The translations under genes and the position numbers were made by a program. Below the pieces are notes generated by a model that was not told the origin of the DNA, searched no databases, and saw nothing but the letters and a program-made list of their open reading frames with translations. DNA of 63,944 nucleotides, filler included. It is 4 parts of 4 records of this genome, joined end to end, with 100 filler letters (N's around TTAATTAATTAA, not from the genome) between each part and the next. Parts side by side here need not be neighbours in the genome. Positions count along the whole stretch, not along the records: positions 44,262 to 58,812 come from SRR20825019_353; 3 more parts are not named here. One strand, written 5' to 3'. Shown here piece after piece: positions 17,680-58,913 of this stretch; within the stretch, counting starts at the first letter, position 1; each line of letters starts with the position of its first letter.

Positions 17680-17687
17680 TATCTTTG
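17680..17687 (+). promoter_or_regulatory. Bacteroidota -7 promoter element upstream of cyoE
   Basis: TATCTTTG. Confidence 0.55.
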
Positions 17688-17711
17688 CACCCCAATTGAA
17701 AAACTTATTTC

Positions 17712-44161: not shown

Positions 44162-44261
44162 NNNNNNNNNNNNNNNNNNNNNNNNNNNNNNNNNNNNNNN
44201 NNNNNTTAATTAATTAANNNNNNNNNNNNNNNNNNNNNNNNNNNNNNNNNNNNNNNNNNNN
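44162..44261. other. Artificial contig linker
   Basis: N44-TTAATTAATTAA-N44; sharp AT-rich to GC-rich change. Confidence 0.98.
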
Positions 44262-44262
44262 G

Positions 44263-45522: not shown

Positions 45523-45893
45523 GCCTTTGCATCGCCGCAAGCGGGAAGCTTATCGCGCTTGCGGCGACCGCTTTTTCGCTCAACTGGACCCATTCGGTCG
45601 AAAAGACCATCTGGTCCGAAAACTGGATTGTCGAGGGTGGTGCGCTCCGGGTCGTTCAGGCAAGCGTCGAGGGCTCTGGTGCCGGGATCGAGCTTCCTGA
45701 CAATGCGGTGCTGCGAGGGAAGAGCTGGGTCTACACGCCCGACCTCGCCCCGGTCGAAAATCTGACTCTGGCGGCGTCTGGCGCGACTGTCTCACCCTGG
45801 ACCCTTTGCACTATCGATACCTGCATCGAGCTTGGTGCTGTGGCCGCAGACCCGGTAAAGATCTGGGTCGCAAAGACATGCACGGCCGGCTGA
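45519..45893 (+). CDS. DUF1850 family protein
   Basis: FSLNWTHSVEKTIWSENW, VEGSGAGIE; typical TAXI-TRAP neighbour. Confidence 0.8.
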   Translation: MSLCIAASGKLIALAATAFSLNWTHSVEKTIWSENWIVEGGALRVVQASVEGSGAGIELPDNAVLRGKSWVYTPDLAPVENLTLAASGATVSPWTLCTIDTCIELGAVAADPVKIWVAKTCTAG

Positions 45894-45986
45894 TGGAGCC
45901 TGCAAGCAGGTGTCTATGGCCACCATGCAGAAGGGCCACTGTCCACCGGCTTTGAGGTGCGGTCGCGCCGATTTGCTGAAAATGCG

Positions 45987-47372
45987 CTAAGCGTCTGCAG
46001 CGGGCGCCAGCGCGCCGGCAATGGTTGGGACCAGTTCAGCCACCGTGGGATGGATGTGCATGGTGTTGGTGAGGGCATCTGCCGTTGCCCCCATTTCGAT
46101 CATGTCCAGGATGGAATGGATCGCTTCATCGCCCCCCGTCCCGAATATGGCACCGCCAAGGATCGCGCGTGTGTCGGCGTCGACGACAATCTTCATCAGG
46201 CCTTGCGTCTCCCCTTTTTCGACGGCGCGTCCGACGCGGGTCATCGGGCGTTTGCCGATCAGGACCTTGTGTCCCTTGGCCAGAGCCTCGGTTTCCGAAA
46301 GCCCGGTCCGGCCCAGGGGCGGATCAATATAGAGACCGTAGCTCATGACGCGGTCCGAGACCTTGCGGGCGCCGCTATCGAGCAGGTTGGACGCAACAAT
46401 TTCATAGTCGTTATACGAGGTGTGGGTGAACGCGCCTTTCCCGTTGCAGTCTCCCAGCGCCCAGATGCCGGGGATGTTGGTTTCCAGGCGATCATTGACC
46501 CGGATAAAGCCGCGCTTGTCGAGCTCCACGCCGGTTTGCTCGAGGCCCAGATCGTCAGTATTTGGCCGACGGCCGACCGCCAGCAGGATGTGGGAACAGG
46601 CGATTTCGGGTTCGCCTGAGGTGCAATCCACCCCCACGACGAGGCCCGTCTCTGCGCGCGAAAAGTGGATGCATTCGGCATTGGTGCGCACCGCAATGCC
46701 TTCTGCTTCGAGTACCTCGCGGATCGCCTCGGAAATCTCCGGATCTTCCTTGCCGGCCAGATGCGAACCGCGCTCGACAATGGTGACACCAGACCCAAAG
46801 CGCCGGAACATCTGCGCAAATTCGAGGCCGATATAGCTGCCGCCGACAATCACCAGATGTTCGGGGCGTTGCTTTAGCCAGAACAGGTCCGAATTGGTCA
46901 GCACCTCGACCTGATCGAGGCCTGGCATGTCGGGAATGGCGGCACGGGCGCCGACATTGAGAAAGATCTGATCCGCCTCATAGCTGTCGCCGCCCACGCT
47001 GATGCGCTTGGGCCCGGTAAAGCGCGCATGGCCGCGCACCAGCGTCAGCCCGCTCATGCCGTCCAGCCAGCGTTCGACGCTGTTGCGGGACTTGGCGCTG
47101 ATGGCCATGGCGCGGCGCAGAACGGCGTCGAAGTCGACCGCCGGGGGCGCCCCGATGCTGATCCCGTATTCTTTTGCATGGGCAACCGAATGCGCGACCT
47201 TTGCGCTGGCCACCAAGGCCTTGGTCGGGGTGCAGCCCGTGTTCACGCAGGTGCCGCCGACCTGTTCGCGCTCGATCAGCGCTACGGTCTGGCCGGCCGC
47301 CGTTAACCGCGCCGCCAGGGGCGGGCCGGCCTGACCTGCACCAATGATGATCGCGTCGAAGGTCTTGGTCAT
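45987..47372 (-). CDS. Flavoprotein disulfide reductase (RclA/MerA-like class I)
   Basis: GAGQAG, redox disulfide GGTCVNTGCTPTK, GGSYIGLE, HIHPTVAE; no C-terminal Cys pair. Confidence 0.85.
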   Translation of the reverse strand: MTKTFDAIIIGAGQAGPPLAARLTAAGQTVALIEREQVGGTCVNTGCTPTKALVASAKVAHSVAHAKEYGISIGAPPAVDFDAVLRRAMAISAKSRNSVERWLDGMSGLTLVRGHARFTGPKRISVGGDSYEADQIFLNVGARAAIPDMPGLDQVEVLTNSDLFWLKQRPEHLVIVGGSYIGLEFAQMFRRFGSGVTIVERGSHLAGKEDPEISEAIREVLEAEGIAVRTNAECIHFSRAETGLVVGVDCTSGEPEIACSHILLAVGRRPNTDDLGLEQTGVELDKRGFIRVNDRLETNIPGIWALGDCNGKGAFTHTSYNDYEIVASNLLDSGARKVSDRVMSYGLYIDPPLGRTGLSETEALAKGHKVLIGKRPMTRVGRAVEKGETQGLMKIVVDADTRAILGGAIFGTGGDEAIHSILDMIEMGATADALTNTMHIHPTVAELVPTIAGALAPAADA

Positions 47373-47435
47373 GGCACATGGTCTCCTTGTCTGGGCCCCT
47401 TGCGAGGCCGCGCTGCATCAACGGTGCTGGCACAA

Positions 47436-48596
47436 TCAAAGGGGGGAGGGCATGGTTGCACGCTCGATCGCATCAAGCACCGCCACTCCAGCGGCCGAGC
47501 GCCCCGCAGATTTGAGCCAGCAAAGCCAGTATTGCATGTCAAATGCCAAAGGCAGAGGGATAGAGTGCAATTCCGGGCGGATCGAGGCGACCGACGCCAG
47601 CGGCAGGACGGAGACAAAGCCGTAATGCAGCACAAGGTTGAGAATGACCGGGATGGAATCGATCTCGAGCAGGTTCAGCCGGTCTCTTTCGGCGTCGCTG
47701 AAGGTCATGTCTAAGAGCGTGTCGATACGCAGCCGCAGCCCGCTGCGGTGACTGGGCAGGGCGATGGGCCGGTCCCGTAGCGCTGCGGCGATGTCCGTAC
47801 CCTTGGCACCCACAATGGCAAGGCCCGACGCGGCTATGGGCGCGCCCTCAAGATCCTCGGGCAATTTCTCGGTATCGAGCAGCACGACGTCGAAGGCGCC
47901 GCTTTTGAGCCCCCGCAACAGCTCCTCGGCCGTGGTGGAACTGATAAACAGCGGCTGCCTGGGGCGGGTCATGGCCCAGCTCGCCGTCAGCTTTGCCAAT
48001 TGGCGGGCGATCTCGCTTTCATAGCCAAGCGGCATGATCGAGCCCAGCCTGACGGTCGCCTGGGCGCGGCGAAACCGGTCCTCGGAGGTTCTCGAGATCT
48101 GCCCCCAGAGCTGCAGCAACCGGCTGCAATCGTCCCAGAGCCGTACCCCTGTCGCCGTCAGCATCGTACCGTCAGTGGCCCGCTCGAGCAGCCTGTGTCC
48201 AAGGGCGGCCTCGAGATGGGCCAATTGCCTGGACAATTGGGGCTGTCCCAGCATCATGGCCCGCGCTGCCTGCCGGATGGACCCGCGTTCGGCCACTTCA
48301 ACAAATCGTCCCAGCGCTTGCAGTCTGACGGTGGATGCGAAAGGATCGGTTCCAACGGCGTAGAGGCGGCGCGCCAGTTGGGCGGCTTCCGCGATTAATG
48401 GTGCGAGACGATTGGCTTCGAGGGTAAAGGCCAGTCCGGAGCCGGCCCGCTGGCAGAGACTGGTCGACAGCGCGCTTTCGCAGCGCGCCAATGCTGCAGC
48501 GATGCTCGATGCGGGGCGTCCGGAAAGCCGCGCTGCGCCGCGCAGACTACGCTGGTTCAAAACAATATCGACCAGGAGCAAGGTCGAAGTGTCCAT
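47436..48596 (-). CDS. LysR-family regulator with two tandem HTH domains
   Basis: HTH1 RSLRGAARLSGRPASSIAAALARCE and HTH2 GSIRQAARAMMLGQPQLSRQLAHLE, then an effector domain; AAGAGG RBS before ATG 48596. Confidence 0.85.
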   Translation of the reverse strand: MDTSTLLLVDIVLNQRSLRGAARLSGRPASSIAAALARCESALSTSLCQRAGSGLAFTLEANRLAPLIAEAAQLARRLYAVGTDPFASTVRLQALGRFVEVAERGSIRQAARAMMLGQPQLSRQLAHLEAALGHRLLERATDGTMLTATGVRLWDDCSRLLQLWGQISRTSEDRFRRAQATVRLGSIMPLGYESEIARQLAKLTASWAMTRPRQPLFISSTTAEELLRGLKSGAFDVVLLDTEKLPEDLEGAPIAASGLAIVGAKGTDIAAALRDRPIALPSHRSGLRLRIDTLLDMTFSDAERDRLNLLEIDSIPVILNLVLHYGFVSVLPLASVASIRPELHSIPLPLAFDMQYWLCWLKSAGRSAAGVAVLDAIERATMPSPL

Positions 48597-48641
48597 CTCG
48601 ATGCCTCTTTGTTGAGCACTCAGTCGGCGTGCCCACAGATA

Positions 48642-48674
48642 GAACATAGCCTGTTCAGCTTTTGGGATATCCCA
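48642..48674. promoter_or_regulatory. Inverted repeats in the divergent LysR/lyase promoter region
   Basis: GAACA-N5-TGTTC at 48642-48656 and perfect palindrome TGGGATATCCCA at 48663-48674. Confidence 0.45.
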
Positions 48675-48724
48675 TGAATATGAAATTTCCAATAGCGTCG
48701 TCCTTGCAGGGAGACCCGGACGAC

Positions 48725-50308
48725 GTGAACGCGCAAATCGCCATACCGACCGACACCATCCGGCTTGAAGGCAAGCCGCTCAGCTTTGCCGATTTTGTGC
48801 GGATTGGGTCGCGTAGAGCATTGATCGTGCCGGAGGCCGCCGCGCTTGAGCGCGTCCACAAGGCCCGCCAGGTCATGGAAGAGGCCATCAGTTCCGGGCA
48901 GCCGGTTTATGGTGCCACCACCGGCGTGGGGGCGATGAAGGACATTTCCTGGTCCGAGGAAGAGCTTGACGCCTTCAGTACGGGTCTTGTGCGCGCCCAC
49001 CATTTTGGTACGGGCAGCGCCTTTCCGCTCGAGGTGGTCCGCAACGCCCTGGCGATCCGGATCAATATGGCATTGACCGGGCGCGTCGGGTGCACACCCG
49101 AGCTGGTCTCGGCCTTTCAGAGGCTGCTTGACGCGGACGTCATCCCGGTCGTGCGCCGTACCGGCTCGATTGGTTGTGCCGATATTGGATTGATGGGGCA
49201 GATCGGCGCTGTGTTGACCGGGGTGGGGGAAGCCTATCATTCAGGCGAGCGTCTGCCGGCCGCCGAAGCCATGGCGCGCGCCGGCCTCAAGCCGTTCAAG
49301 CTGGCACCGCGCGACAGTCTCGCTTCGGTCTCGACCAATGCCGTCGGCTATGCGGCCGCCATGCGGGCCATCCGTCAGGCGGCCACTACGGTGCGCGTGC
49401 TGCTGGCCACGGGCCTCACCACGGCCGGGGCGCTGGGCGCCTCGCGCGATCCCTGGAAAGCGGTGGCCCATGTCGGCACCGAGCGCGAGGCCGGTGTCGG
49501 TGCCTGGCTCTATTTCAACGCCATGGGCTGGGACTGGCCCACGGGCACGCATGTCCAGGATCCGCTCTCGATCCGCATGATGAGCCAGGTGTTTGCCACC
49601 GCCTTTGAAAGCCTGACGGTTGCCGGCCGCACGGTTCTGGCTGCGACGGGCCGCACCGACGACAATCCGGTGGTCGCCGGCGGCCAGGTGCTCACCTCCG
49701 GTGGTTCGCTGCCGCTCGATGTCACCGTGTTCCTGCAAACCGCCCAGCTGGCGCTGGCCCATGTGGCGCGCAATTCCTTCAATCGCTGCGTGCTTCTGGG
49801 CAATGGCGGGCGACGGGATCTGCCGGTCAACCTGGTGGCGCCGGGAGCGATCGCAACCGGGTTCGGGCCGATCATCAAGCTGGCGGGTGAATTGTACGTG
49901 CGCTGCCTGTCGCTCTCGAATGCGATTTCCGCGCAGTCTCTCGTGGTCGCCAATGGTCTTGAAGACGAGGCAGCCTTTCTCCCGCTGGTCGTCGAGCGGT
50001 TCGAGCGGCAGGCGGGGGCCCTGCGGCGCCTCGCAGCTCTTGAAGGTCTGCTCGCCGCCCAGGCCATGGACATTTCGGGTGACACGCCGGGCAATGTGCC
50101 CGGCATGGTCTATGATCTGGTGCGCCGGCACGCGGCCTTCTATCGCGAGGACCGTCCGCTCTCGGCCGAAGTCGAGGCAGTGGAGGCGGCCCTGGCGTCC
50201 GATGACTTTGTTGGCGAACTGATTTCACATTCCGCCATTATGGAGTTGGACGAGTATTTTGCACTCGGCCCGCAAACTGGGAATGAAACGACCACTGTCA
50301 CGAATTGA
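48725..50308 (+). CDS. HAL/PAL-family lyase lacking the MIO tripeptide (ergothionase-like)
   Basis: VYGATTGVGAMKD; GSIGCADI in place of GSVGASGDL; QDPLSIR; DDNP. Probable GTG start 48725 after GGGAG (alternatives 48674/48680). Confidence 0.78.
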   Translation: MNAQIAIPTDTIRLEGKPLSFADFVRIGSRRALIVPEAAALERVHKARQVMEEAISSGQPVYGATTGVGAMKDISWSEEELDAFSTGLVRAHHFGTGSAFPLEVVRNALAIRINMALTGRVGCTPELVSAFQRLLDADVIPVVRRTGSIGCADIGLMGQIGAVLTGVGEAYHSGERLPAAEAMARAGLKPFKLAPRDSLASVSTNAVGYAAAMRAIRQAATTVRVLLATGLTTAGALGASRDPWKAVAHVGTEREAGVGAWLYFNAMGWDWPTGTHVQDPLSIRMMSQVFATAFESLTVAGRTVLAATGRTDDNPVVAGGQVLTSGGSLPLDVTVFLQTAQLALAHVARNSFNRCVLLGNGGRRDLPVNLVAPGAIATGFGPIIKLAGELYVRCLSLSNAISAQSLVVANGLEDEAAFLPLVVERFERQAGALRRLAALEGLLAAQAMDISGDTPGNVPGMVYDLVRRHAAFYREDRPLSAEVEAVEAALASDDFVGELISHSAIMELDEYFALGPQTGNETTTVTN

Positions 50309-50363
50309 CAGTGCTTACAGGGTAGGGACAGCCGGAATTTTCCGGCTCACAAAGGAGAGAGTC

Positions 50364-51275
50364 ATGCGCCTAACGAAAACGCTATTGAGTGCGGCGACCG
50401 CACTCGCATTGACCATGACTGCCGCGCAGGCACAGGTGGTCGTTTCGTCCAAGATCGACACGGAAGGCGGTGTGCTTGGCAACATCATCAAGCAGGTGCT
50501 CGAAGCCAACGATATCGCGGTCGAAGACCGGATCCAGCTCGGTGGCACGCCGATCGTGCGCGAAGCCATCACTGCGGGCGAGATCGACATCTATCCCGAA
50601 TATACCGGCAACGCGGCCTTCTTTTTCGAACGGGCCGATGATCCGCTCTGGAACAATGCACAGTCGGCCTATGAAGAGGCCAAAAAGCTCGATTACGACG
50701 CCAACCAGATCGTCTGGCTGACCCCGTCGCCCGCCAACAACACCTGGGCCGTGGCCATCCGTCAGGACGTGGCCGAGGCCAATGGCCTGGATACCTTCAC
50801 CCAGTTCGGTGAATATGTCGCCGGCGGTGGCGAAGTGGTGCTGGCGGCCTCTGCCGAGTTCGTGAACTCGCCGGCCGCTTTGCCCAAATTCCAGGAAGTC
50901 TATGGCTTCACGCTCTCGCCCGACCAGTTGATCACCCTTTCGGGTGGCGACACCGCAGCCACCATCGCGGCTGCCGCACAGGGCACCAATGGCGCCAACG
51001 CGGCCATGGTCTATGGCACGGACGGCGGCATCGCGCCTTCCGGGCTCAAGGTGCTCGAGGACGATCAGGGCGTGCAGCCGGTCTATCAGCCCGCCCCGAT
51101 CATTCGTGAAGAGGTTCTTGCCGAATACCCGCAGATCGAAGAGCTGCTGGCGCCGGTCTTTGAGGCGCTGACGCTCGAAACCCTGCAGGAGCTCAATGGC
51201 CGGGTGCAGGTTGGCGGCGAGGCGGCGTCCAGCGTGGCCACCGACTTCCTGACAACCAACGGCTTCCTGAGCTGA
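50364..51275 (+). CDS. osmF: ABC substrate-binding protein, OsmF/YehZ (quaternary amine) family
   Basis: Signal peptide, SSKIDTEG, IDIYPEYTG, NNTWA, VYGTDG, QPVYQPAP; AAGGAGA RBS before ATG 50364. Confidence 0.88.
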   Translation: MRLTKTLLSAATALALTMTAAQAQVVVSSKIDTEGGVLGNIIKQVLEANDIAVEDRIQLGGTPIVREAITAGEIDIYPEYTGNAAFFFERADDPLWNNAQSAYEEAKKLDYDANQIVWLTPSPANNTWAVAIRQDVAEANGLDTFTQFGEYVAGGGEVVLAASAEFVNSPAALPKFQEVYGFTLSPDQLITLSGGDTAATIAAAAQGTNGANAAMVYGTDGGIAPSGLKVLEDDQGVQPVYQPAPIIREEVLAEYPQIEELLAPVFEALTLETLQELNGRVQVGGEAASSVATDFLTTNGFLS

Positions 51276-51281
51276 GCCCAG

Positions 51282-51349
51282 GGCCTTCGCCACTGGCGGA
51301 GGCCATGCCCGCCGGGGTGGCGGCGCCAAACGCTCGTCACCCCACCGGC
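51282..51349 (+). other. Two GC-rich stem-loops between the binding protein and permease genes
   Basis: GGCCTTCGCC-ACT-GGCGGAGGCC and GGGGTGGCG...CGTCACCCC; no U-tract. Confidence 0.4.
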
Positions 51350-51429
51350 CGCGGACAGCCTCGGAATGCCGGGGCAATCCAGACAGCGTCCAGGTGACGC
51401 TTTGCCTGCCACGAGGAGCGAGGGCGCGC

Positions 51430-52620
51430 ATGACGACCGCCGATACCACGGGCCAAAGCCGTGCCGCATGGCCGGCCTTCGACAAGCTCGGTGTGCTGAT
51501 CGCCCTGATCGCCGCCGCAGGGGCCTTCCTGCCCTTTGCTGTCTTCCGCGCCAATCGCATCGTTCTGGGCGAAGGGCTGCTGGTCCCATCCGCCCTCAAT
51601 ATGCCATCGGCGATCCTGCTCGGTCTCGTCATCCTCATCGGCATCGGGACAATGCTTCTGCGCGTCAATCCTTTCGCCAAGCTCGGTGTCGGCTTCCTGG
51701 TGCTGGCCACGCTCCTGGTCCTGATCGGCCAGTCCGCGACGTTTCTGACGCCCCCTGACAATACCTTCGCGCGGGTGTCGCCCGGCGCCGGGTTCTGGCT
51801 TCTGATCTTTGCCTTCGCGCTGATGGTCACCGATGCGTTGACTCGCCTCCGGTTCGGGCCATTGCAGCGTATCGGCATTCTCGCCGCGGTTGGCGCGGCG
51901 ATGGCAGCGCTGCTCTGGAGTGGCGCCTGGAACGATCTGTCGATCCTCAAGGAATTCGCCAATCGCGCGCCGGCTTTCTGGGCCGAAGCCCGTACCCATC
52001 TGCTTCTGGCCTTCGGGTCGGTCGCCATCGCCATCATTGCCGGCGTGCCACTGGGCATTCTGCTCTACCGGGTCAAACCGCTGCGCGCCGCCGTGCTCAA
52101 TACCCTCAATATCGTCCAGACCATCCCCTCGATCGCGCTGTTCGGGCTGCTGATCGCCCCGCTGGCCTGGGTTGCCGCCAATGTGCCGGGCGCATCGGCC
52201 GTCGGCATTTCGGGCATCGGCATCGCCCCGGCCATGGTGGCGCTCTTTGCCTATTCGCTGCTGCCCATCGTTTCGAACACCGTGGTGGGCCTGGTCAACG
52301 TGCCCGAGGCTGCCAACGATGCGGCGCGGGGCATGGGCATGACCAATCGGCAGCGCCTGTTTTCGGTGGAGCTGCCGCTGGCCTTTCCCGTCATCCTCAC
52401 CGGCATTCGCATCGTGCTGGTCCAGAATATTGGCCTCGCCACCATCGCCGCGCTGATCGGCGGCGGCGGCTTCGGCGTCTTTGTGTTCCAGGGCATCGGC
52501 CAGACCGCCATGGATCTGGTGCTGCTGGGCGCCGTGCCCACCGTGGCCCTGGCCTTTGCGGCTGCCGTCATCCTCGATGCCTTTGTCGAAATGGTCAGCA
52601 CCAGGGAGCGTGCCCAATGA
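51430..52620 (+). CDS. ABC permease (YehY-like)
   Basis: QTIPSIALFG, DAARGMGMT..QRLFSVELPLA. Confidence 0.88.
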   Translation: MTTADTTGQSRAAWPAFDKLGVLIALIAAAGAFLPFAVFRANRIVLGEGLLVPSALNMPSAILLGLVILIGIGTMLLRVNPFAKLGVGFLVLATLLVLIGQSATFLTPPDNTFARVSPGAGFWLLIFAFALMVTDALTRLRFGPLQRIGILAAVGAAMAALLWSGAWNDLSILKEFANRAPAFWAEARTHLLLAFGSVAIAIIAGVPLGILLYRVKPLRAAVLNTLNIVQTIPSIALFGLLIAPLAWVAANVPGASAVGISGIGIAPAMVALFAYSLLPIVSNTVVGLVNVPEAANDAARGMGMTNRQRLFSVELPLAFPVILTGIRIVLVQNIGLATIAALIGGGGFGVFVFQGIGQTAMDLVLLGAVPTVALAFAAAVILDAFVEMVSTRERAQ

Positions 52621-53549
52621 TCGAAATCCAGGAGCTGACCAAGGTCTATGGCGAGACGACGGTGGTCGACAGGGTCTCCCTGACCATCAACGCCGGCGAG
52701 CTGTGCGCGATTGTGGGCACGTCCGGTTCGGGCAAGACCACGCTGATGCGCATGGTCAACCGGCTGGTCGAGCCGACCTCGGGCAAGGTGCTGATTGACG
52801 GACAGGATACGCGCGACGTTCCCGCCTATGAATTGCGCCGCCGCATCGGCTACGCCATCCAGGGCCATGGCCTGTTTCCCCACCGCACCGTGGGGCAGAA
52901 TATCGGCACCGTGCCCCATCTGCTCGGCTGGGAAGCCTCGCGGATTTCGGCGCGGATCGATGAATTGCTCTCGCTGTTCCAGCTCGATCCGGCCCGGTTT
53001 CGTGACCGTATGCCCAATGAATTGTCGGGTGGTCAGCAGCAGCGCGTCGGTGTGGCGCGCGCCTTGGCGGCCGAACCCAATATCCTCCTGATGGACGAAC
53101 CCTTTGGCGCGCTCGACCCGGTCATCCGCTCCAAGGCCCAGGACGATTTGCTCGCCATCCAGAAGCGGTTCAACACCACAGTGGTGCTGGTGACCCACGA
53201 CATGGAAGAGGCCATCCACCTGGGCAGCCGCATCGCCGTCATGGATGGCGGCAAGCTGCTGCAATACGCGACGCCTGAGGACATCATCGCCAATCCGGCC
53301 ACCGATTTTGTCGCTGAACTCATCGGCGGCGACCGGCCCTTCCGCATGCTCTCGCTGGCAAAGGTGCTCTCCCTGGTTGAGCCCGGTGACGCTGCGGGTG
53401 AACCGATCTCCGCCAGCGCCAGCCTGAGAGAGGCCTATGCCGAATGTCTCTGGTCGGGGCGGGAAGCCTTGCCAGTCATTGAGGACGGTAAGCTGGTCGG
53501 CCGTATCAGCCGCGCCGAGCTGGCCAGACGCGCCGTGAGGCCGTCATGA
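52617..53549 (+). CDS. ABC ATP-binding protein (YehX/OpuCA-like)
   Basis: GTSGSGKT, LSGGQQQRV, LLMDEPFGALD, C-terminal CBS-like segment. Confidence 0.92.
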   Translation: MIEIQELTKVYGETTVVDRVSLTINAGELCAIVGTSGSGKTTLMRMVNRLVEPTSGKVLIDGQDTRDVPAYELRRRIGYAIQGHGLFPHRTVGQNIGTVPHLLGWEASRISARIDELLSLFQLDPARFRDRMPNELSGGQQQRVGVARALAAEPNILLMDEPFGALDPVIRSKAQDDLLAIQKRFNTTVVLVTHDMEEAIHLGSRIAVMDGGKLLQYATPEDIIANPATDFVAELIGGDRPFRMLSLAKVLSLVEPGDAAGEPISASASLREAYAECLWSGREALPVIEDGKLVGRISRAELARRAVRPS

Positions 53550-54298
53550 GCATCGGTCTTGTCATCCGCCTCCTCGTTCTGGCCCTGCTGGTAGCATTCC
53601 TGGTCAGCCCGGAGAGCTTCGCCTTTGTCTTCGAGCCGCTGACCAAGAACAACCAGCCGGTGATCTACAATCAGGGCAGCCTGCTCGACCTCACTCTAAA
53701 CCACTTGCTGATCGTGGCGATTGCGACGGCCCTGGCCACGGCCGTCGCGGTCGGCCTCGCCATCCTCGTGACGCGTCCCTTTGGCGCCGAGTTCCTGCCG
53801 CTGTCGCGCAGCCTGGCCAATGTCGGGCAGACCTTCCCGCCTGTTGCGGTGCTGGCCCTGGCCGTGCCCATGCTCGGTTTCGGCACTGCCCCGACATTGG
53901 TGGCCCTGTTCCTCTATGGTCTCTTGCCGATCTTCGAAAACACCCTGACCGGCCTCACCGGGCTGCCGCCCACAGTGACCGAAGCGGCGCGGGGCATGGG
54001 CATGACCGGCGGGCAACGCCTTGTTCGCGTCGAGCTGCCCTTGGCGCTGCCGGTCATTCTCGCCGGGGTGCGGCTCTCCACGGTGATCTCGCTGGCCACC
54101 GCCACCATCGGCTCCACCGTCGCTGCCCGCACTTTGGGCGAAGTCATCATCGCCGGGCTCTTGTCCAGCAATACCGCCTTTGTGCTGCAGGGCGGGCTCA
54201 TCGTGGGCGCGCTCGCCGTGCTGATTTACGACGGCCTCTCGGCCATCGAGCGGGCGCTGACCCGTCGCACCGGCCAGGGCGCCCGCGCCAACGCCTGA
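53546..54298 (+). CDS. ABC permease (YehW-like)
   Basis: GQTFPPVAVLAL, EAARGMGMT. Confidence 0.88.
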   Translation: MSIGLVIRLLVLALLVAFLVSPESFAFVFEPLTKNNQPVIYNQGSLLDLTLNHLLIVAIATALATAVAVGLAILVTRPFGAEFLPLSRSLANVGQTFPPVAVLALAVPMLGFGTAPTLVALFLYGLLPIFENTLTGLTGLPPTVTEAARGMGMTGGQRLVRVELPLALPVILAGVRLSTVISLATATIGSTVAARTLGEVIIAGLLSSNTAFVLQGGLIVGALAVLIYDGLSAIERALTRRTGQGARANA

Positions 54299-54318
54299 CT
54301 ACGGAAAGACTACAGATC

Positions 54319-55680
54319 ATGTCCGACTTCGACCTCAGCCTCACCGGCACCATCGTCCTCCCGGACCGCATCATCGAGCGCGGCCATATCGCCGTGCGTG
54401 ATGGCAAGATCGCCTTGGTCGGCGAGGGCACTGGTCCTGAGGCAAAGGAACGCCATGATCTGGGCACGGCCATGATCCTGCCCGGCGCCATCGACGCGCA
54501 GACCCATTCCCTCAGCCAGAAAGATCAGGAAGACTTTGTCTGGTCGACCCGCTCGGCAGCGGCCGGCGGCGTCACCACGATCGTCGACATGCCCTATGAT
54601 GAAGGTAATCTCGTCTGCTCGGCCGACGCAGTCCGCATCAAGGTCGATCATGCCAGCCCGCAGGCCCGCGTCGATTTCGCGCTTTATGGCACGATCAACC
54701 CGGAAGAGGGGGCCGCCCGCATCGCCGAACAGGCCGAGGCGGGCGTTGCTGCCTTCAAGTTCTCGACCTTCGGCACCGATCCGATCCGCTTTCCGCGCAT
54801 TCCACCGGCGCTGCTGGAAGAGTGTTTTGCCGCCGTCGCCAAAACCGGCCTGACAGCCGGCGTGCACAATGAAGACGATGAAATGGTCCGGTCCGCCATG
54901 GCCAGGGTCAAGGCAGCGGGAATAACCGACTACCGCGCCCATGGCCTCAGCCGCCCACCGCTGACCGAACTGCTGGCCTCGCTGCAGATCTACGAGACCG
55001 GGGCACAGACAGGATGCCCCGCCCATGTGGTGCATTGCTCGCTCGCCCGCGGCTACGAGATCGCCCGCACCTATCGCGACCAGGGCTACGCCGCCACCAT
55101 CGAATGCTGCATTCACTATCTGACGCTGGACGAGGAGAACGACGTCGCCCGGCTCGGCGGCAAGGCCAAGATCAATCCGCCGATCCGTCCGCGCGCCGAA
55201 GTCGAAAAGCTCTGGCAGCATGTCGCGGCCGGCAATGTCACCCTGATTTCGACCGATCACGTCAGCTGGTCCGAGGACCGCAAGACCAATCCGGATATGC
55301 TCGCCAATGCCTCGGGCGTGCCCGGCCTCGAAGTCATGGTGCCGCTGTTCATCAAGGGGGCCCTGGACCATGGCGTAGCCCTGACCTGGGCGGCCAAACT
55401 GATGGCGGAAAACCCCGCCCGCCACTTCCGCCTCGACCACGTCAAGGGCGCCCTGCAGGTCGGCAAGGACGCCGACATCACTGTTCTCGTCGATCGCCCG
55501 CAGGTCTATGACGCGGCCCGCAGCGGCCATAACGTCGTCGGCTGGAGCCCGTATAACGGTATTGAACTGCCCTGGACCGTCGCCGGCACGTGGTTGCGCG
55601 GCCGGCAAGTTTTTGATGGTACAGATGTTTTATCTGAACCGGGCACCGGCCGCTTCGTCCGGCCCGAGGCCCGCGCATGA
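54319..55680 (+). CDS. Cyclic amidohydrolase (hydantoinase/allantoinase-like); predicted hydantoin-5-propionate hydrolase
   Basis: PGAIDAQTH, AAAGGVTTIVDMP, FKFS, VHNE, VVHCS, KINPPIR, STDH. Confidence 0.8.
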   Translation: MSDFDLSLTGTIVLPDRIIERGHIAVRDGKIALVGEGTGPEAKERHDLGTAMILPGAIDAQTHSLSQKDQEDFVWSTRSAAAGGVTTIVDMPYDEGNLVCSADAVRIKVDHASPQARVDFALYGTINPEEGAARIAEQAEAGVAAFKFSTFGTDPIRFPRIPPALLEECFAAVAKTGLTAGVHNEDDEMVRSAMARVKAAGITDYRAHGLSRPPLTELLASLQIYETGAQTGCPAHVVHCSLARGYEIARTYRDQGYAATIECCIHYLTLDEENDVARLGGKAKINPPIRPRAEVEKLWQHVAAGNVTLISTDHVSWSEDRKTNPDMLANASGVPGLEVMVPLFIKGALDHGVALTWAAKLMAENPARHFRLDHVKGALQVGKDADITVLVDRPQVYDAARSGHNVVGWSPYNGIELPWTVAGTWLRGRQVFDGTDVLSEPGTGRFVRPEARA

Positions 55681-56930
55681 CCCGCAACCTGCCCACCAGC
55701 GCCGAGCGGATCGACGAGGACATCTCGGCTTTGGCCGAAATCACCGAGCCCGACCGCCCCTACACCCGCCGCGCCTTCACACCCATGTTCCTCAAAGGCC
55801 GCGACTGGCTGGCGCAGCGCTTCCAGGCCGCCGGCCTCACCACTCACATCGACGCAGCCGGCAACCTCATCGGCTCCCGAAAGGGCAACAAACCCGGCCT
55901 TGGCACGATCATGCTCGGCTCGCATTCCGATACGGTGCCCGATGGCGGCCGCTATGACGGTATCGCGGGGGTCTCCGCCGCCCTCGAAGTGGCGCGCGCC
56001 CTTGGCGACAAGGGCATAGAGCTCGACCACGATTTGGAGATCATCGATTTCCTCGCCGAAGAAGTTTCGATTTTCGGCGTCTCCTGCGTCGGCAGCCGCG
56101 GCATTACCGGAACCCGCCCCGAAGACTGGTTGGGCCGCGAGAGCCAGGGCGTTAGCCTCGCCAATGCCATAGCCGAAGTCGGCGGTAATGCCGCAATCCT
56201 GGCGACGCGCAATGACATCGCCGCCTTCCTCGAACTCCATATCGAACAGGGGCCGGTCCTCGAAGACGAAGAGCTCGATATCGGTGTGGTGACAGCCATT
56301 GCGGGCATTACCCGCATCGAGATTGTCGTTGAGGGCCGAGCCGATCACGCCGGCACCACACCCATGGGCAGCCGCAAGGATGCGCTTTCGACCGCAGCCT
56401 GGATCGCGCTGGCGGTCGAGCGTTTCGCAACAGATCTGGCGGCCGGCGATTTCCATCTCGCAGCAACAGTTGGCGAGTTCCGCATGGAACCCAATGCCGC
56501 CAATGTCGTGCCCTCGCGCGTCACCATGCTGATCGATGCGCGCGCCGAGCGCCGCGCCGACATGGAGCATTTCCTCGCCCAATTGCGTGAAGGCGTTGCC
56601 GGCATTGCCGCACAGACTGGCGTGACGGTGCCGGAACCGCGCATTATTTCGGACAATCTGCCGACGCCCAGCGACGCCGATATCCTGGCCGCACTGGACG
56701 CCGCCTGCGACGCCACCGGCGCCCGCCACCGCCGCATGGCCTCCGGTGCCGGACATGACACCGCCTGGATGGCGCGGGTCACCAAGGCGGCGATGATCTT
56801 TGTGCCTTGTGTCCAGGGCCGCAGCCATACCCCCGAAGAATCCGCCAAGGCCGAGGACATCGCGCTTGGTGCTGCCGTGCTGCTCGACGCGGTGCAGCGG
56901 CTCGATAAAGACCTGCAGGAGACAGCATAA
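55677..56930 (+). CDS. M20 Zn hydrolase of the N-carbamoyl-L-amino-acid amidohydrolase type
   Basis: GSHSDTVPDGGRYDG, AEE, ELHIEQGP, DHAGTTPM, SGAGHD, SHTPEE. Confidence 0.88.
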   Translation: MTRNLPTSAERIDEDISALAEITEPDRPYTRRAFTPMFLKGRDWLAQRFQAAGLTTHIDAAGNLIGSRKGNKPGLGTIMLGSHSDTVPDGGRYDGIAGVSAALEVARALGDKGIELDHDLEIIDFLAEEVSIFGVSCVGSRGITGTRPEDWLGRESQGVSLANAIAEVGGNAAILATRNDIAAFLELHIEQGPVLEDEELDIGVVTAIAGITRIEIVVEGRADHAGTTPMGSRKDALSTAAWIALAVERFATDLAAGDFHLAATVGEFRMEPNAANVVPSRVTMLIDARAERRADMEHFLAQLREGVAGIAAQTGVTVPEPRIISDNLPTPSDADILAALDAACDATGARHRRMASGAGHDTAWMARVTKAAMIFVPCVQGRSHTPEESAKAEDIALGAAVLLDAVQRLDKDLQETA

Positions 56931-58018
56931 TGGGACGCATCCTTACCGAGAAAGACGTGGAAGCGGCCGTCAAAGGCGGCTCTGTCTATGCAGCAGGCGG
57001 CGGCGGCTGGGCCGATCACGGCCGTATGCTGGGCTATGCGGCGGTCTCGATCGGCAAACCCGAATTGGTTTCGGTGGAGGAACTGGACGACAGCGACTGG
57101 GTGGCGACGGCGGCCGCCATTGGCGCACCGGCCTCGACAACGCCCTGGGAAATGCGCGGCGTCGATTACATCAAGGCCGTGCAACTGCTCCAGGATGCGT
57201 TGGGCGAAAAATTGGCCGGCCTGATGGTCGGCCAGAACGGCAAATCCTCGACGCTCAATGGCTGGCTGCCCTCGGCGGCATTGGGCCTGAAAGTGCTCGA
57301 CGCCGTGGGCGATATCCGCGCGCACCCCACCGGCGATATGGGCTCGATTGGCCTCGCCGGTTCGCCCGAACCGATGATCCAGACCGCCGTGGGCGGCAAT
57401 CGCGACGAGAACCGCTATATCGAGCTGGTTACCCGGGGCGCCACCGCAAAGGTGTCCCCGATCCTGCGCACCGCCTCGGACATGTCCGGCGGCTTTATTG
57501 CATCCTGTCGCAATCCGGTGCGCGCCAGCTATGTTCGCGACCATGCGGCCCTGGGCGGCATTTCGCTGGCGCTCAAGCTCGGCGAGGCGATCATCGCGGC
57601 CGAAGGCAAGGGTGGCACCGCCATCATCGACGCCATCGTCAAGACAACCGGCGGGACGATCCTGGTGGAAGGCAAGATCACCAAAAAGGCGGTGACCTAT
57701 ACCAGCGAGGCCTTTGATGTCGGGACCGTCACGCTCGAAAATGGCGCCGTGCTGCATGTCATGAACGAATATATGGCCGTCGACACCCGCGATGGCGCCC
57801 GGCAGGCCACTTTCCCGGATGTGATCACCACGCTTTCGATCGATGGCGAGCCGCTCAGCGTCGGCCAGCTTGAGGAGGGCATGCCCATCTTCGTGCTGCA
57901 CGTCCCCAAAGCCATCATTCCACTGTCTTCGAGCGTGCTCGATCCGTCTGTCTATCCGCATGTCGAAAAGACCATGGGGATCGAACTGGCCCGCTACGCC
58001 CTGTCCAAGGAGGGCTGA
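56930..58018 (+). CDS. DUF917 protein; predicted thiohydantoin desulfurase
   Basis: AAGGGG, IGAP, DAVGDIRAHP, NEYMAV, ATFPDVI match DUF917 patterns. Confidence 0.8.
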   Translation: MGRILTEKDVEAAVKGGSVYAAGGGGWADHGRMLGYAAVSIGKPELVSVEELDDSDWVATAAAIGAPASTTPWEMRGVDYIKAVQLLQDALGEKLAGLMVGQNGKSSTLNGWLPSAALGLKVLDAVGDIRAHPTGDMGSIGLAGSPEPMIQTAVGGNRDENRYIELVTRGATAKVSPILRTASDMSGGFIASCRNPVRASYVRDHAALGGISLALKLGEAIIAAEGKGGTAIIDAIVKTTGGTILVEGKITKKAVTYTSEAFDVGTVTLENGAVLHVMNEYMAVDTRDGARQATFPDVITTLSIDGEPLSVGQLEEGMPIFVLHVPKAIIPLSSSVLDPSVYPHVEKTMGIELARYALSKEG

Positions 58019-58020
58019 AC

Positions 58021-58812
58021 ATGCCGACCCCCAATCCCCGTCACCCGCGTTTCCCCATTCCCGGTGGCAATGAAGTCCGCGCACGCGGCTGGCGCCAGGA
58101 AGCCCTGTTGCGGCTGCTCGAAAACGTCCTGAGTGTTGGTGAAGACCCGGACAATCTTGTCGTCTATGCGGCCCTGGGCAAGGCGGCCCGCAACTGGGCC
58201 AGCCACGACGCGATTGTCCATGCACTCAAGACCATGGACGAGGATCACACGCTGATCATCCAGTCGGGCAAGCCGATTGGCCTGGTCAAAACCCATGCCA
58301 AGGCGCCGCTGGTGATCATGGCCAATTGCAACATCGTGGGGCAATGGGCCAAGGCCGAAGTTTTCTACGAACTGGAGCGCAAGGGCCTGATCTGCTGGGG
58401 CGGGCTGACCGCCGGCGCCTGGCAATATATTGGCAGCCAGGGTGTCATCCAGGGCACTTATGAAATCTTCATGCGCATTGCCGAAAACCGCTTTGACGGC
58501 GATCTGGCGGGGCGCTTCATTCTGACTGCGGGCCTGGGTGGCATGGGTGGCGCGCAACCGCTGGCCGGCCGTATGGCAGGCGCGGCGATCCTCTGCGTCG
58601 ATATCGACCCCGAGCGCGCGGCCAAGCGCAAGGAAATCGGCTATCTCGAAGAGATCGCGCCTGACCTCGACGCAGCGCTCGAAATGATCGCGACCGCCGT
58701 TCGCGAAAAGCGCGCGACCTCCATCGGCCTGGTCGGCAATGCCGCCGACATCTATCCCGAAATTGCGCGGCGCGGCATCACGCCCGATATCGTCACCGAC
58801 CAGACCTCGGCC
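58021..58812 (+). CDS. Urocanate hydratase-family protein (divergent, thiourocanate hydratase-like), 3' partial
   Basis: QSGKP, YIGSQGVIQGTYE, TAGLGGMGGAQPLA, VTDQTSA; pocket variants VYAALG and WGGLTAG. Confidence 0.85.
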
Positions 58813-58912
58813 NNNNNNNNNNNNNNNNNNNNNNNNNNNNNNNNNNNNNNNNNNNNTTAATTAATTAANNNNNNNNNNNNNNNNNNNNNNNNNNNNNNNN
58901 NNNNNNNNNNNN
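58813..58912. other. Artificial contig linker
   Basis: N44-TTAATTAATTAA-N44. Confidence 0.98.
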
Positions 58913-58913
58913 A

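What the first reader, a model, noticed from the sequence alone, without database searches (positions are those of the whole stretch)
47436..58812. A 'hut-like' cluster that is probably an ergothioneine-type uptake and five-step catabolism system
Seen: one co-oriented, largely start/stop-overlapping run of an MIO-less HAL-family lyase, a four-gene OsmF/YehZ ABC transporter, a hydantoinase-like amidohydrolase, an M20 carbamoylase, DUF917 and a divergent urocanase, opposite a LysR. No hutI, hutG, hutF or hutC is visible, though the contig ends inside the urocanase. Established: bacterial ergothioneine catabolism uses ergothionase (MIO-independent, releases trimethylamine), thiourocanate hydratase, a DUF917 thiohydantoin desulfurase (releases H2S), a hydantoinase-type enzyme and a carbamoylase to give glutamate. 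Inference: all five steps plus a betaine-class importer and regulator are here, so this alphaproteobacterium could turn ergothioneine or a relative (S-methyl-ergothioneine, selenoneine, hercynine) into TMA, sulfide and glutamate. Automated annotation would call it histidine utilisation plus osmoprotectant uptake. The pathway type is known; the substrate of this variant is not established from the sequence.
Basis: partly seen in the sequence, partly recalled or inferred. Interest (0 to 1): 0.85.

Follow-up and report, generated by a model that had tools for sequence, protein, structure and literature searches.

The report
Ergothioneine breakdown operon with built-in importer
This is a Devosia gene cluster that most likely imports the antioxidant ergothioneine and breaks it down to trimethylamine, sulfide and glutamate; the pathway is already known, so the find is a tidy new example and not a new system.

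Summary
Window 44262-58812 is a separate 14.5-kb, 64% GC contig, and its closest relatives are Devosia. It carries a divergent LysR gene and nine co-oriented genes. These are a lyase of the histidine ammonia-lyase fold without the MIO cofactor motif, four osmF-yehYXW-type ABC importer genes, ErtD, ErtE, a DUF917 thiohydantoin desulfurase, and the first 264 codons of a thiourocanate hydratase cut by the contig end.

NCBIfam curated models for ergothioneine use are passed by ErtD, ErtE and the desulfurase. Full-length hydratase orthologues in 5 of 5 nearest Devosia genomes also pass. The lyase has no curated model. It lacks Ala-Ser-Gly, keeps the lysine that binds the thiolate in Treponema ergothionase, and sits in a well-supported clade next to that enzyme's group. 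The S-methyl, hercynine and ordinary Hut readings score worse.

The nearest Devosia genomes show no HutH, no ordinary urocanase and no EgtD, so the substrate is probably taken up from outside.

What is new is modest: the embedded OsmF-type importer, a distinct lyase clade and a LysR regulator with two DNA-binding domains. No activity was tested. Interest is low to moderate.

The parts
44262..58812 (.). The contig that holds the cluster (14,551 bases, GC 0.64), bounded by artificial N/TTAATTAATTAA spacers
   Evidence: The neighbouring contigs have GC 0.35, 0.42 and 0.50.
47436..48596 (-). LysR-family regulator, 386 aa from ATG 48596 (the ORF is open to TTG 48692). It has an extra, degenerate HTH_1-like domain ahead of the normal HTH_1 and substrate-binding domains.
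   Evidence: HTH_1 73 bits in 2 stretches, LysR_substrate 57.7 bits; the N-terminal stretch alone gives HTH_1 25.9 bits against a cut-off of 26.6; 41% identical from residue 1 to the long LysR beside ErtD-ErtE-DUF917-hydratase in Paracoccus aminophilus.
48663..48674 (.). Perfect 12-base palindrome TGGGATATCCCA in the 77-base divergent intergenic region, ending at the lyase ATG. Candidate LysR operator.
   Evidence: TTGGGATATCCC occurs once upstream of the lyase in 16 of 16 related loci that carry this LysR, and in 0 of the other 51 related loci. The core GGGATATCCC also lies between the long LysR-like gene and ErtD in Neorhizobium L079.
48674..50308 (+). MIO-less lyase of the histidine ammonia-lyase fold (544 aa), a predicted ergothionase (ergothioneine trimethylamine-lyase). 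Catalytic Tyr79: 48908-48910. Cys168-Ala169-Asp170 in place of Ala-Ser-Gly: 49175-49183. Lys402, equivalent to Treponema Lys384: 49877-49879.
50364..51275 (+). Periplasmic substrate-binding protein, OsmF (YehZ) type, with a signal peptide
   Evidence: NF049931 492.8 bits, cut-off 400; 475 bits to 4nd9, 348 bits to E. coli OsmF 4wep, 95-102 bits to ergothioneine-binding EgtUC.
51394..52620 (+). ABC permease, long (YehY-like). The start is uncertain: GTG 51394, or the ATG about 36 bases downstream.
52617..53549 (+). ABC ATPase of the ProV/betaine family with a C-terminal CBS remnant (YehX-like)
   Evidence: ABC_tran; CBS weak; TIGR01186 293.5 bits, below the 326.6 cut-off
53546..54298 (+). ABC permease, short (YehW-like)
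54319..55680 (+). ErtD, hydantoin-5-propionate amidohydrolase
   Evidence: NF058538 788.4 bits, cut-off 600
55677..56930 (+). ErtE, N-carbamoyl-L-glutamate amidohydrolase (M20)
   Evidence: NF058540 592.2 bits, cut-off 520. The generic NF009531 also passes with 649 bits.
56930..58018 (+). DUF917 thiohydantoin desulfurase
   Evidence: NF058529 595.5 bits, cut-off 440; S-methyl model NF058532 only 279.5 bits. Pfam S-Me-THD_N and S-Me-THD_C.
58021..58812 (+). Thiourocanate hydratase, first 264 codons only; the gene is cut by the contig end
   Evidence: NF058530 475 bits on model positions 2-247 of 535, against 368 (S-methyl) and 323 (hutU); 363 bits to 7ned against 298 for the next chain; orthologues reach 1036-1048 bits, cut-off 930.

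Best explanation
The contig comes from a Devosia (Hyphomicrobiales). It carries an inducible operon for taking up and fully degrading exogenous ergothioneine.

The inferred steps are these.
1. The OsmF/YehYXW-type ABC system brings ergothioneine into the cytoplasm.
2. The MIO-less lyase removes trimethylamine and gives thiourocanate. The conserved Tyr takes the beta-proton and the conserved Lys holds the thiolate.
3. Thiourocanate hydratase gives the thiohydantoin propionate.
4. The DUF917 desulfurase releases H2S and gives hydantoin-5-propionate.
5. ErtD opens the ring.
6. ErtE releases glutamate, ammonia and CO2.

The divergent LysR with two HTH domains probably switches the operon on through the palindrome next to the lyase start.

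Shown here: gene content, family assignments, conserved residues and conserved synteny. Inferred: every enzymatic activity, the transported substrate and the regulation.
For: - Family models: ErtD, ErtE and thiohydantoin desulfurase pass the curated NCBIfam equivalog cut-offs.
- Hydratase: the fragment scores best with the thiourocanate hydratase model and with chain 7ned. Full-length orthologues in 5 of 5 nearest Devosia genomes score 1036-1048 bits against a cut-off of 930.
- Lyase, best solved relative: the ergothionase 6s7j at 185.7 bits, against 126 bits for histidine ammonia-lyase.
- Lyase, residues: it has no Ala-Ser-Gly and keeps Lys at the Treponema Lys384 position. That Lys is reported as essential for ergothionase and is replaced by Asn or Gln in histidine-betaine lyases.
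- Lyase, alignment of 132 sequences: 93 lack ASG and have this Lys; 0 of the 18 with [AS]SG have it.
- Lyase, tree: a 15-member clade with support 1.0 is sister, with support 0.995, to a group holding P0154 (593.6 bits to 6s7j) and P0266 (392 bits).
- Synteny: all nine genes lie in the same order in 41 of 67 related loci, plus Microvirga L067 with a lyase only 37% identical.
- Genome background: the nearest Devosia genomes have only this lyase as a HAL-family gene (5 of 5, all below the hutH cut-off). They have only this hydratase as a urocanase-family gene. They have no EgtD (0 of 5).
- Independent cluster: a Burkholderia plasmid joins the same five enzyme families to a lyase of another type that also has the Lys.
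Against: - Nothing was assayed.
- The lyase is only about 27-35% identical to the relatives of characterised ergothionases, and no curated model covers it.
- The hydratase is incomplete in the window.
- The binding protein is a close orthologue of OsmF proteins (475 bits to 4nd9, 348 bits to E. coli OsmF). The E. coli system is described, in a paper title only, as a low-affinity betaine transporter.
- In an order-wide sample, 27 of 31 genomes with OsmF lack the desulfurase, so the transporter family is not dedicated to this pathway.
- Two related loci, L007 and L014, run the catabolic genes without the transporter.
- Related substrates (selenoneine, ergothioneine sulfonate) cannot be excluded from sequence. 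The paper on the sulfonate pathway was not held.
Confidence: 0.82

Rival explanations
1. The enzymes degrade ergothioneine as above, but the embedded OsmF/YehYXW transporter imports glycine betaine or another small betaine and is only a passenger in the operon.
For: The OsmF equivalog is passed. The binding protein scores 348 bits to E. coli OsmF and 475 bits to 4nd9. The E. coli system is named a betaine-specific transporter in a paper title. OsmF is found in 31 of 201 sampled genomes of the order, against 4 of 201 for the desulfurase. L007 and L014 lack the transporter.
Against: The four genes sit between the lyase and ErtD, with 4-base overlaps among themselves and a 20-base gap to ErtD. 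This placement is kept in 41 of 67 loci across lyase identities of 69-97%, and in Microvirga. The lyase has no signal peptide (sequence), so its substrate must be imported. In G002-G004 this is the only OsmF copy. All 4 desulfurase-positive genomes of the sample have OsmF, and in 3 of them it lies within 7 kb of the desulfurase.
Confidence: 0.25
2. The cluster handles a modified ergothioneine instead of ergothioneine itself: S-methyl-ergothioneine, ergothioneine sulfonate or selenoneine.
For: The lyase belongs to a separate clade (Gly-Cys-Ala-Asp motif) that I could not link to any characterised enzyme. Variant clusters exist, for example on A. tumefaciens pAt, which has a DUF917 36% identical, a glutathione S-transferase and a molybdopterin S/N-oxide reductase. 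An ergothioneine sulfonate pathway is in print for Agrobacterium radiobacter; only its title was seen, in reference lists.
Against: The S-methyl models score far below the thio models: 279.5 against 595.5 bits for the desulfurase, and 368 against 475 bits for the hydratase fragment. Orthologous hydratases pass the thiourocanate cut-off. The thiolate-binding Lys is kept.
Confidence: 0.1
3. It is an ordinary histidine utilisation (Hut) operon next to an osmoprotectant transporter, as older annotation reads it.
For: The lyase, urocanase and amidohydrolase families are those of Hut. Public names are 'histidine ammonia-lyase', 'aromatic amino acid lyase' and 'urocanate hydratase'. These Devosia genomes have no other HAL-family or urocanase-family gene.
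Against: The Ala-Ser-Gly needed for the MIO cofactor is missing. The lyase scores 197 bits against a hutH cut-off of 539. The hydratase prefers the thiourocanate model. A desulfurase, a hydantoinase-type enzyme and a carbamoylase take the place of HutI and HutG or HutF.
Confidence: 0.02
4. The lyase acts on hercynine (histidine betaine) or an N-methylated histidine betaine, like the Shewanella enzymes.
For: Those enzymes are also MIO-less members of the same fold.
Against: They carry Asn or Gln at the Lys384 position and are periplasmic partners of flavocytochromes. The window lyase has Lys, has no signal peptide, and is linked to a desulfurase that a sulfur-free substrate would not need.
Confidence: 0.03

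Closest known systems
Bacterial five-step ergothioneine catabolism (ergothionase, thiourocanate hydratase, thiohydantoin desulfurase, hydantoin-5-propionate amidohydrolase ErtD, N-carbamoyl-glutamate amidohydrolase ErtE). The links to Burkholderia sp. HME13 and to the Beliaeva-Leisinger-Seebeck reconstitution are recalled; only titles were seen.
   Same: The same five enzyme families. Three pass the curated models in the window, and the fourth passes through its orthologues. A Burkholderia plasmid cluster with the same families was read for comparison.
   Different: The lyase is of another clade, 32% identical to the Burkholderia-type lyase. The importer is a four-gene OsmF-type ABC system where the Burkholderia cluster has MFS transporters. 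The regulator is a long LysR with two HTH domains, unrelated beyond family level to the Burkholderia cluster's LysR.
Treponema denticola ergothionase (PDB 6s7j, 6s7q)
   Same: Best solved match (185.7 bits). No MIO motif. The catalytic Tyr, the Gln/Arg/Asn/Glu substrate-binding positions and Lys384 are all conserved in the alignment. Leu stands where histidine ammonia-lyase has Tyr/Phe in QDP[YF]S.
   Different: P0154, which stands for the Treponema enzyme's group, is 27% identical to the window lyase. The window has Cys-Ala-Asp where Treponema has Glu-Gly-Asp. The two lie in separate clades with full support.
EgtUV / EgtU ergothioneine ABC importer (Helicobacter pylori, Streptococcus pneumoniae)
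   Same: The same Pfam binding-protein family, PF04069, the same betaine-type ABC class, and the same proposed substrate.
   Different: EgtU fuses the permease to the binding domain. Here the binding protein is free and there are two permease genes. The match to EgtUC chains is only 95-102 bits. The ergothioneine-contacting residues listed were not mapped.
E. coli OsmF-YehY-YehX-YehW (YehZYXW)
   Same: The OsmF equivalog is passed. The match to the E. coli OsmF structure is 348 bits. The gene order is the same as listed in EcoCyc.
   Different: Here the operon is embedded inside a catabolic operon. The E. coli system is described as a low-affinity betaine transporter (title only).

Membership tests
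Ergothioneine catabolic cluster (five-step pathway) | Ergothionase: a HAL-fold lyase without the Ala-Ser-Gly MIO motif, with the catalytic Tyr and the thiolate-binding Lys (Treponema Lys384) | tested here: met
   Cys-Ala-Asp at the MIO site, Tyr79 and Lys402 conserved. Activity was not tested.
Ergothioneine catabolic cluster (five-step pathway) | Thiourocanate hydratase (NCBIfam NF058530, cut-off 930 bits) | tested here: inconclusive
   The window holds only 264 codons: 475 bits on model positions 2-247 of 535. Full-length orthologues, 96-99% identical in the shared part, score 1036-1048 bits in 5 of 5 genomes.
Ergothioneine catabolic cluster (five-step pathway) | Thiohydantoin desulfurase (NF058529, cut-off 440) | tested here: met
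   595.5 bits
Ergothioneine catabolic cluster (five-step pathway) | Hydantoin-5-propionate amidohydrolase ErtD (NF058538, cut-off 600) | tested here: met
   788.4 bits
Ergothioneine catabolic cluster (five-step pathway) | N-carbamoyl-L-glutamate amidohydrolase ErtE (NF058540, cut-off 520) | tested here: met
   592.2 bits
Ergothioneine catabolic cluster (five-step pathway) | Turnover of ergothioneine to trimethylamine, H2S and glutamate | not testable with these tools
   Needs enzyme assays or growth tests
Canonical histidine utilisation (Hut) | HutH with the MIO motif, passing TIGR01225 (cut-off 539) | tested here: not met
   197.1 bits and no Ala-Ser-Gly
Canonical histidine utilisation (Hut) | HutI plus HutG or HutF in the cluster | tested here: not met
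   None among the genes of the contig. The contig ends in the hydratase, but the Devosia orthologous locus L003 shows no ORF of 150 aa or more in the 627 bases held after that gene.
S-methyl-ergothioneine pathway | S-methyl thiourocanate hydratase (NF058531, cut-off 880) and S-methyl thiohydantoin desulfurase (NF058532, cut-off 450) | tested here: not met
   368 bits (fragment) and 279.5 bits. Both are lower than the scores for the thio models on the same proteins.
Histidine-betaine trimethylammonia-lyases (Shewanella type) | A neutral residue (Asn or Gln) at the Lys384 position, and a periplasmic leader | tested here: not met
   Lys is present and no hydrophobic leader is in the N-terminus.
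OsmF/YehZYXW ABC transporter | OsmF equivalog NF049931 (cut-off 400) and the four-gene order binding protein, long permease, ATPase, short permease | tested here: met
   492.8 bits; gene order and the EcoCyc listing
EgtUV ergothioneine transporter | Fused permease and binding-domain protein EgtU plus ATPase EgtV | tested here: not met
   The binding protein is separate and there are two permease genes.
EgtUV ergothioneine transporter | The ergothioneine-contacting residues of EgtUC (aromatic pentagon, K242, R379, T296, I243, T274) | not tested
   The residues are listed. No residue-level alignment to EgtUC could be obtained, because only the five best chains are printed.

The most novel reading that the evidence does not exclude
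The OsmF/YehZYXW family as a whole, and not only this Devosia copy, may be an importer of ergothioneine or of histidine betaines. The window's binding protein is a close orthologue of the E. coli, Brucella-type and Agrobacterium-type OsmF proteins, and here it is wired into an ergothioneine catabolic operon. That would give a physiological substrate to a transporter known in E. coli only as a low-affinity betaine system. It would also define a second, unfused architecture for bacterial ergothioneine uptake beside EgtUV. Caveat: the 2022 Cell paper on EgtUV, which I could not read, may already count Salmonella or E. coli homologues as ergothioneine transporters. hint at this.
Probability: 0.35. 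Interest if true: 0.55.

Novelty: new member of a known kind. Interest (0 to 1): 0.3.

Why it matters
Ergothioneine is a widespread fungal and bacterial antioxidant. Its breakdown releases trimethylamine and sulfide, so knowing which bacteria consume it matters for sulfur and methylamine cycling.

This locus shows that the pathway is a genus-wide trait of Devosia: 41 of 67 related loci hold the full set. These organisms seem to lack both ordinary histidine utilisation and ergothioneine synthesis.

It flags a lyase clade that public records still name 'histidine ammonia-lyase' and that no curated model covers.

It also offers a clean genetic setting to test whether OsmF/YehZYXW transporters carry ergothioneine, and to study a LysR regulator with two HTH domains and its palindromic site. 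These are useful refinements, not a new kind of system.

Tried and rejected

- The window's own assembly is not held. The nearest held genome, G001, has only an ordinary urocanase-level match (301.9 bits). It is therefore kin to another contig of this mixed window and not to the Devosia contig, so I worked from the Devosia genomes reached through loci L001-L005.
I located the spacers with a script instead.
- The cluster look-up for 10 lyase representatives gave only 'histidine ammonia-lyase', 'hutH2' or no name. I therefore labelled the tree with two PDB searches.
- Promoter and terminator scans found no more than the shuffles did: 3 against 2.3, and 7 against 8.1.

**Papers not held or not seen**
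- Dumitrescu 2022, Beliaeva 2021 and Yan 2022 are not held.
- Maurer 2019, Muramatsu 2013 and Lang 2015 were seen only as reference titles.
- Supplements were not opened. The alignments in the supplements of the two Shewanella preprints may bear on the residue mapping.

**Literature searches**
- Searches for ergothioneine together with OsmF, YehZ or YehZYXW found one paper that holds both kinds of term. It only cites the Cell paper for yehZ.
- No paper in the library links Devosia with ergothioneine catabolism.

- I did not map the EgtUC contact residues onto the binding protein, because no stored EgtU sequence or printed alignment was available.
- I considered folding the lyase or the binding protein. 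I dropped it because the fold alone would not separate ergothionase from histidine ammonia-lyase, or OsmF from EgtUC.

Full report
**What the window is.** The 63,944-base window is not one piece of DNA. N runs with a TTAATTAATTAA core stand at 18270-18369, 44162-44261 and 58813-58912. They split the window into four contigs with GC 0.35, 0.42, 0.64 and 0.50. The finding lies wholly in the third contig, 44262-58812.

**Source organism.** A protein-guided scan of one genome per species returned 67 loci related to the lyase. Of the record titles, 54 name Devosia, 2 name Devosiaceae, 1 names Pelagibacterium and 1 names Microvirga. The other 9 carry only higher-rank MAG labels. The best matches are 95-97% identical at the protein level. 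The nearest genome that the tools hold for the window as a whole, G001, has no thiourocanate hydratase. It must be kin to one of the other contigs.

**Anatomy.** On the minus strand lies a LysR gene, 47436-48596 (or to 48692 from an upstream TTG). Divergent from it, on the plus strand, run nine genes:
- a lyase, 48674-50308
- a binding protein with a signal peptide, 50364-51275
- a long permease, 51394-52620
- an ATPase, 52617-53549
- a short permease, 53546-54298
- an amidohydrolase, 54319-55680
- an M20 hydrolase, 55677-56930
- a DUF917 protein, 56930-58018
- 264 codons of a urocanase-family protein, 58021-58812

Five junctions overlap or nearly abut. The two larger gaps are 55 and 118 bases. 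Promoter and terminator pattern scans gave nothing above the shuffled background.

**Family assignments.** Pfam gives the expected broad families. NCBIfam release 20.0 is much more specific:

| Protein | Model | Score (bits) | Cut-off |
|---|---|---|---|
| Amidohydrolase | hydantoin-5-propionate amidohydrolase ErtD | 788 | 600 |
| M20 hydrolase | N-carbamoyl-L-glutamate amidohydrolase ErtE | 592 | 520 |
| DUF917 | thiohydantoin desulfurase | 595.5 | 440 |
| DUF917 | S-methyl thiohydantoin desulfurase | 279.5 | 450 |
| Urocanase fragment | thiourocanate hydratase | 475 | 930 |
| Urocanase fragment | S-methyl thiourocanate hydratase | 368 | 880 |
| Urocanase fragment | hutU | 323 | 375 |

The 475 bits of the fragment come from 246 of the model's 535 positions. 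The fragment cannot reach the full-length cut-off. Its orthologues in the five nearest Devosia genomes are 96-99% identical over the shared part. They score 1036-1048 bits. Among solved structures the fragment matches 7ned best, at 363 bits against 298 for the next chain. I recall that 7ned is a thiourocanate hydratase; the entry title says only 'urocanate hydratase'.

**The lyase: residues.** This is the one enzyme without a curated model. Its best NCBIfam hits are histidine ammonia-lyase models at 197-216 bits, far below cut-offs of 524-539. Every name shown among the 120 closest public proteins is 'histidine ammonia-lyase' or 'aromatic amino acid lyase'.

Its best solved relative is the Treponema denticola ergothionase (185.7 bits). 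Pseudomonas histidine ammonia-lyase scores 126 bits. The printed alignments show these points:
- Cys-Ala-Asp stands where the MIO-forming Ala-Ser-Gly would be.
- The Tyr of the YG.TTG.G motif is conserved.
- The Gln and Arg of QDP.S.R, the Asn of DDNP and the Glu of ED are conserved.
- Leu stands at the Tyr/Phe position of histidine ammonia-lyase's QDP[YF]S motif, as in the ergothionase.
- Lys aligns with the Lys of the ergothionase's IQK motif.

That Lys is chain position 383. It corresponds to Lys384 if the crystallised chain lacks the first Met, and the one-residue offset seen fits this. Two preprints, read in the named sections, state that Lys384 binds the thiolate and is essential for ergothionase. 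They also state that histidine-betaine lyases carry Asn or Gln there.

**The lyase: wider family.** I searched 1.84 billion cluster representatives with the lyase. I aligned the window lyase and the Microvirga lyase with the 130 of the best 150 hits that are at least 430 residues long; 20 shorter ones were dropped. Of these 132 sequences:
- 93 lack the MIO triplet and have Lys at this column.
- 18 have Ala-Ser-Gly or Ser-Ser-Gly, and none of these has Lys.
- 21 lack the triplet and have another residue.

I built a FastTree tree of 131 of them, leaving out the fragmentary P0140, and rooted it on the MIO-bearing clade. The window falls in a 15-member clade with support 1.0. That clade is marked by Gly-Cys-Ala/Gly-Asp, except P0127, which has Ala in place of Cys. 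It is sister, with support 0.995, to a 32-member group. The sister group holds P0154, at 593.6 bits to the Treponema ergothionase, and P0266, at 392 bits.

Two other points tie this clade and the lysine-bearing class to the pathway:
- The Microvirga member of the window's clade is only 37% identical to the window lyase, yet it sits in the same nine-gene context.
- A Burkholderia plasmid cluster with the same five enzyme families uses a lyase from outside this clade. It has Gly-Glu-Ala-Asp, is 32% identical, and also has the Lys.

**Conservation and genomic background.** The 67 related loci break down as follows:
- 41 have all nine genes in the window's order.
- L067 does too, with its divergent lyase.
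- 18 are cut short by a contig or locus end.
- 2 (Pelagibacterium L007, D. ureilytica L014) have the lyase followed directly by ErtD, without the transporter.
- 3 (L017, L046, L065) lack ErtD.
- 2 (L015, L063) lack the downstream genes although sequence continues.

In the five nearest Devosia genomes:
- The cluster lyase is the only HAL-family match, and none passes the hutH cut-off.
- The cluster hydratase is the only urocanase-family match.
- EgtD, the first enzyme of ergothioneine synthesis, was not found in any.

So this is not a spare copy of a Hut operon. The substrate is probably acquired from outside, which fits a lyase without a signal peptide and an importer in the operon.

**The transporter.** The binding protein passes the OsmF equivalog, 492.8 bits against a cut-off of 400. 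Against solved structures it matches as follows:
- 467-475 bits to three structural-genomics OsmF-type proteins (4nd9, 5teu, 5uve)
- 348 bits to E. coli OsmF (4wep)
- 95-102 bits to the ergothioneine-binding domain EgtUC

The gene order is that of E. coli osmF-yehY-yehX-yehW. EgtU is a fusion of permease and binding domain, so this system is not an EgtUV.

In an even sample of 201 genomes of the order, OsmF passes its cut-off in 31 and the desulfurase in 4. All 4 desulfurase-positive genomes have OsmF, and in 3 of them it lies within 7 kb of the desulfurase. Conversely, 27 OsmF-bearing genomes lack the desulfurase. These genomes are related to each other, so the counts are not independent events.

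Other lineages pair the same enzymes with other transporters:
- MFS transporters in Burkholderia
- TRAP or amino-acid ABC systems nearby in Paracoccus, Thalassospira and Neorhizobium
- no transporter between the catabolic genes in Rhizobium sp. SL42

My reading is that Devosia recruited an OsmF-type system as the pathway's importer. The embedding argues for this. Nothing here shows what the system binds.

**The regulator.** The LysR has a second, degenerate HTH_1-like stretch ahead of its normal DNA-binding domain (25.9 bits, cut-off 26.6). It is 41% identical from residue 1 to the long LysR that sits beside ErtD-ErtE-DUF917-hydratase in Paracoccus aminophilus. A similar long LysR lies inside the Rhizobium sp. 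SL42 cluster. The ordinary LysR of the Burkholderia cluster is unrelated beyond the family level.

The 77-base divergent region ends in the perfect palindrome TGGGATATCCCA (48663-48674). The 12-mer TTGGGATATCCC occurs once, upstream of the lyase, in all 16 related loci that have this LysR. It occurs in none of the 51 that do not. Its core also lies between the long LysR-like gene and ErtD in Neorhizobium. This is a candidate operator, and the link is inferred from co-occurrence only.

**Comparison with what is known, and verdict.** The pathway type is established. I could not read the primary papers, and my knowledge of them rests on four things:
- the names of the curated models
- reference titles
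- statements in the papers I did read that ergothionase yields thiourocanate and trimethylamine
- a statement there that thiourocanate is further degraded with release of hydrogen sulfide

The window's cluster meets the sequence-level criteria for four enzymes and, through its orthologues, for the fifth. It fails those of Hut, of the S-methyl variant and of the histidine-betaine lyases. I file it as a new member of a known kind.

- The substrate is most likely ergothioneine itself.
- Current annotation models already recognise most of the cluster.
- The surprise value is modest.

Open points:
- the activity of this lyase clade
- the ligand of the OsmF-type binding protein
- whether oxidised or selenium analogues are also used
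- the role of the LysR and its palindrome

Noticed in passing
window 1-18269, 18370-44161, 44262-58812, 58913-63944: The window is four unrelated contigs (GC 0.35, 0.42, 0.64, 0.50) joined by artificial N/TTAATTAATTAA spacers. The assembly looks like a mixture of organisms. The nearest held genome, G001, shares 57% of the window's sampled words but lacks the cluster.
   Followed up: partly
window 59013-63944 (+): One open frame of more than 1644 codons encodes a DNA polymerase theta-like protein: a Helicase_C remnant, the POLQ helical domain and DNA polymerase A. It has long low-complexity inserts and looks eukaryotic, not bacterial.
   Followed up: partly
window 47436-48692 (-); L074 13395-14786 (-); L076 6043-7248 (+): The cluster's LysR carries a second, degenerate HTH_1-like domain at its N-terminus. 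Long LysR proteins with the same build accompany the ErtD-ErtE-DUF917-hydratase genes in Rhizobium sp. SL42 and Paracoccus aminophilus.
   Followed up: partly
window 48663-48674; L079 7282-7291: The palindrome TGGGATATCCCA upstream of the lyase co-occurs strictly with the long LysR (16 of 16 loci with it, 0 of 51 without). Its core also lies in the LysR-ErtD intergenic region of a Neorhizobium plasmid.
   Followed up: partly
window 45987-47372 (-): An FAD-containing pyridine nucleotide-disulfide oxidoreductase (NF004992, 750.7 bits) lies next to the LysR. This adjacency is kept only in the closest Devosia loci (L001-L006, L064), so it is probably not part of the system.
   Followed up: partly
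window 44275-45893 (+): The left end of the contig holds the C-terminal part of a TRAP fused permease and a DUF1850 protein. These are not conserved next to the cluster in related loci.
   Followed up: no
L076, L078, L079 (plasmids of Paracoccus aminophilus, Thalassospira marina, Neorhizobium sp.): These clusters have a long LysR (in L079 the gene at that place is annotated hypothetical protein), ErtD, DUF917 and a hydratase. ErtE is listed in L076 and L079. In L078 nothing is listed in the 1.26-kb gap between ErtD and DUF917, and PLSDB's gene table is incomplete. No lyase lies within 10 kb, except in L079, where only about 6.4 kb lies downstream before the record ends. These organisms may use thiourocanate made by others, or keep the lyase elsewhere.
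   Followed up: no
L080 (Agrobacterium tumefaciens Ach5 plasmid pAt) 8878-18945: A variant cluster holds a DUF917 (36% identical), a glutathione S-transferase, a Zn hydrolase, a urocanate hydratase, a molybdopterin S/N-oxide reductase, an amidohydrolase and a betaine-type ABC transporter. It may serve an oxidised or methylated thiohistidine betaine.
   Followed up: no
L017, L046, L065: Three Devosia loci keep the operon but lack ErtD between the short permease and ErtE.
   Followed up: no
window 50330-50347: An 18-base hairpin-forming repeat (AGCCGG-AATTTT-CCGGCT) lies between the lyase stop and the ribosome-binding site of the binding-protein gene. The terminator scan did not list it.
   Followed up: no
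window 42344-44041 (-): The neighbouring low-GC contig encodes a lipoprotein-like surface protein with TIG, cadherin, PKD and DUF285 domains.
   Followed up: no
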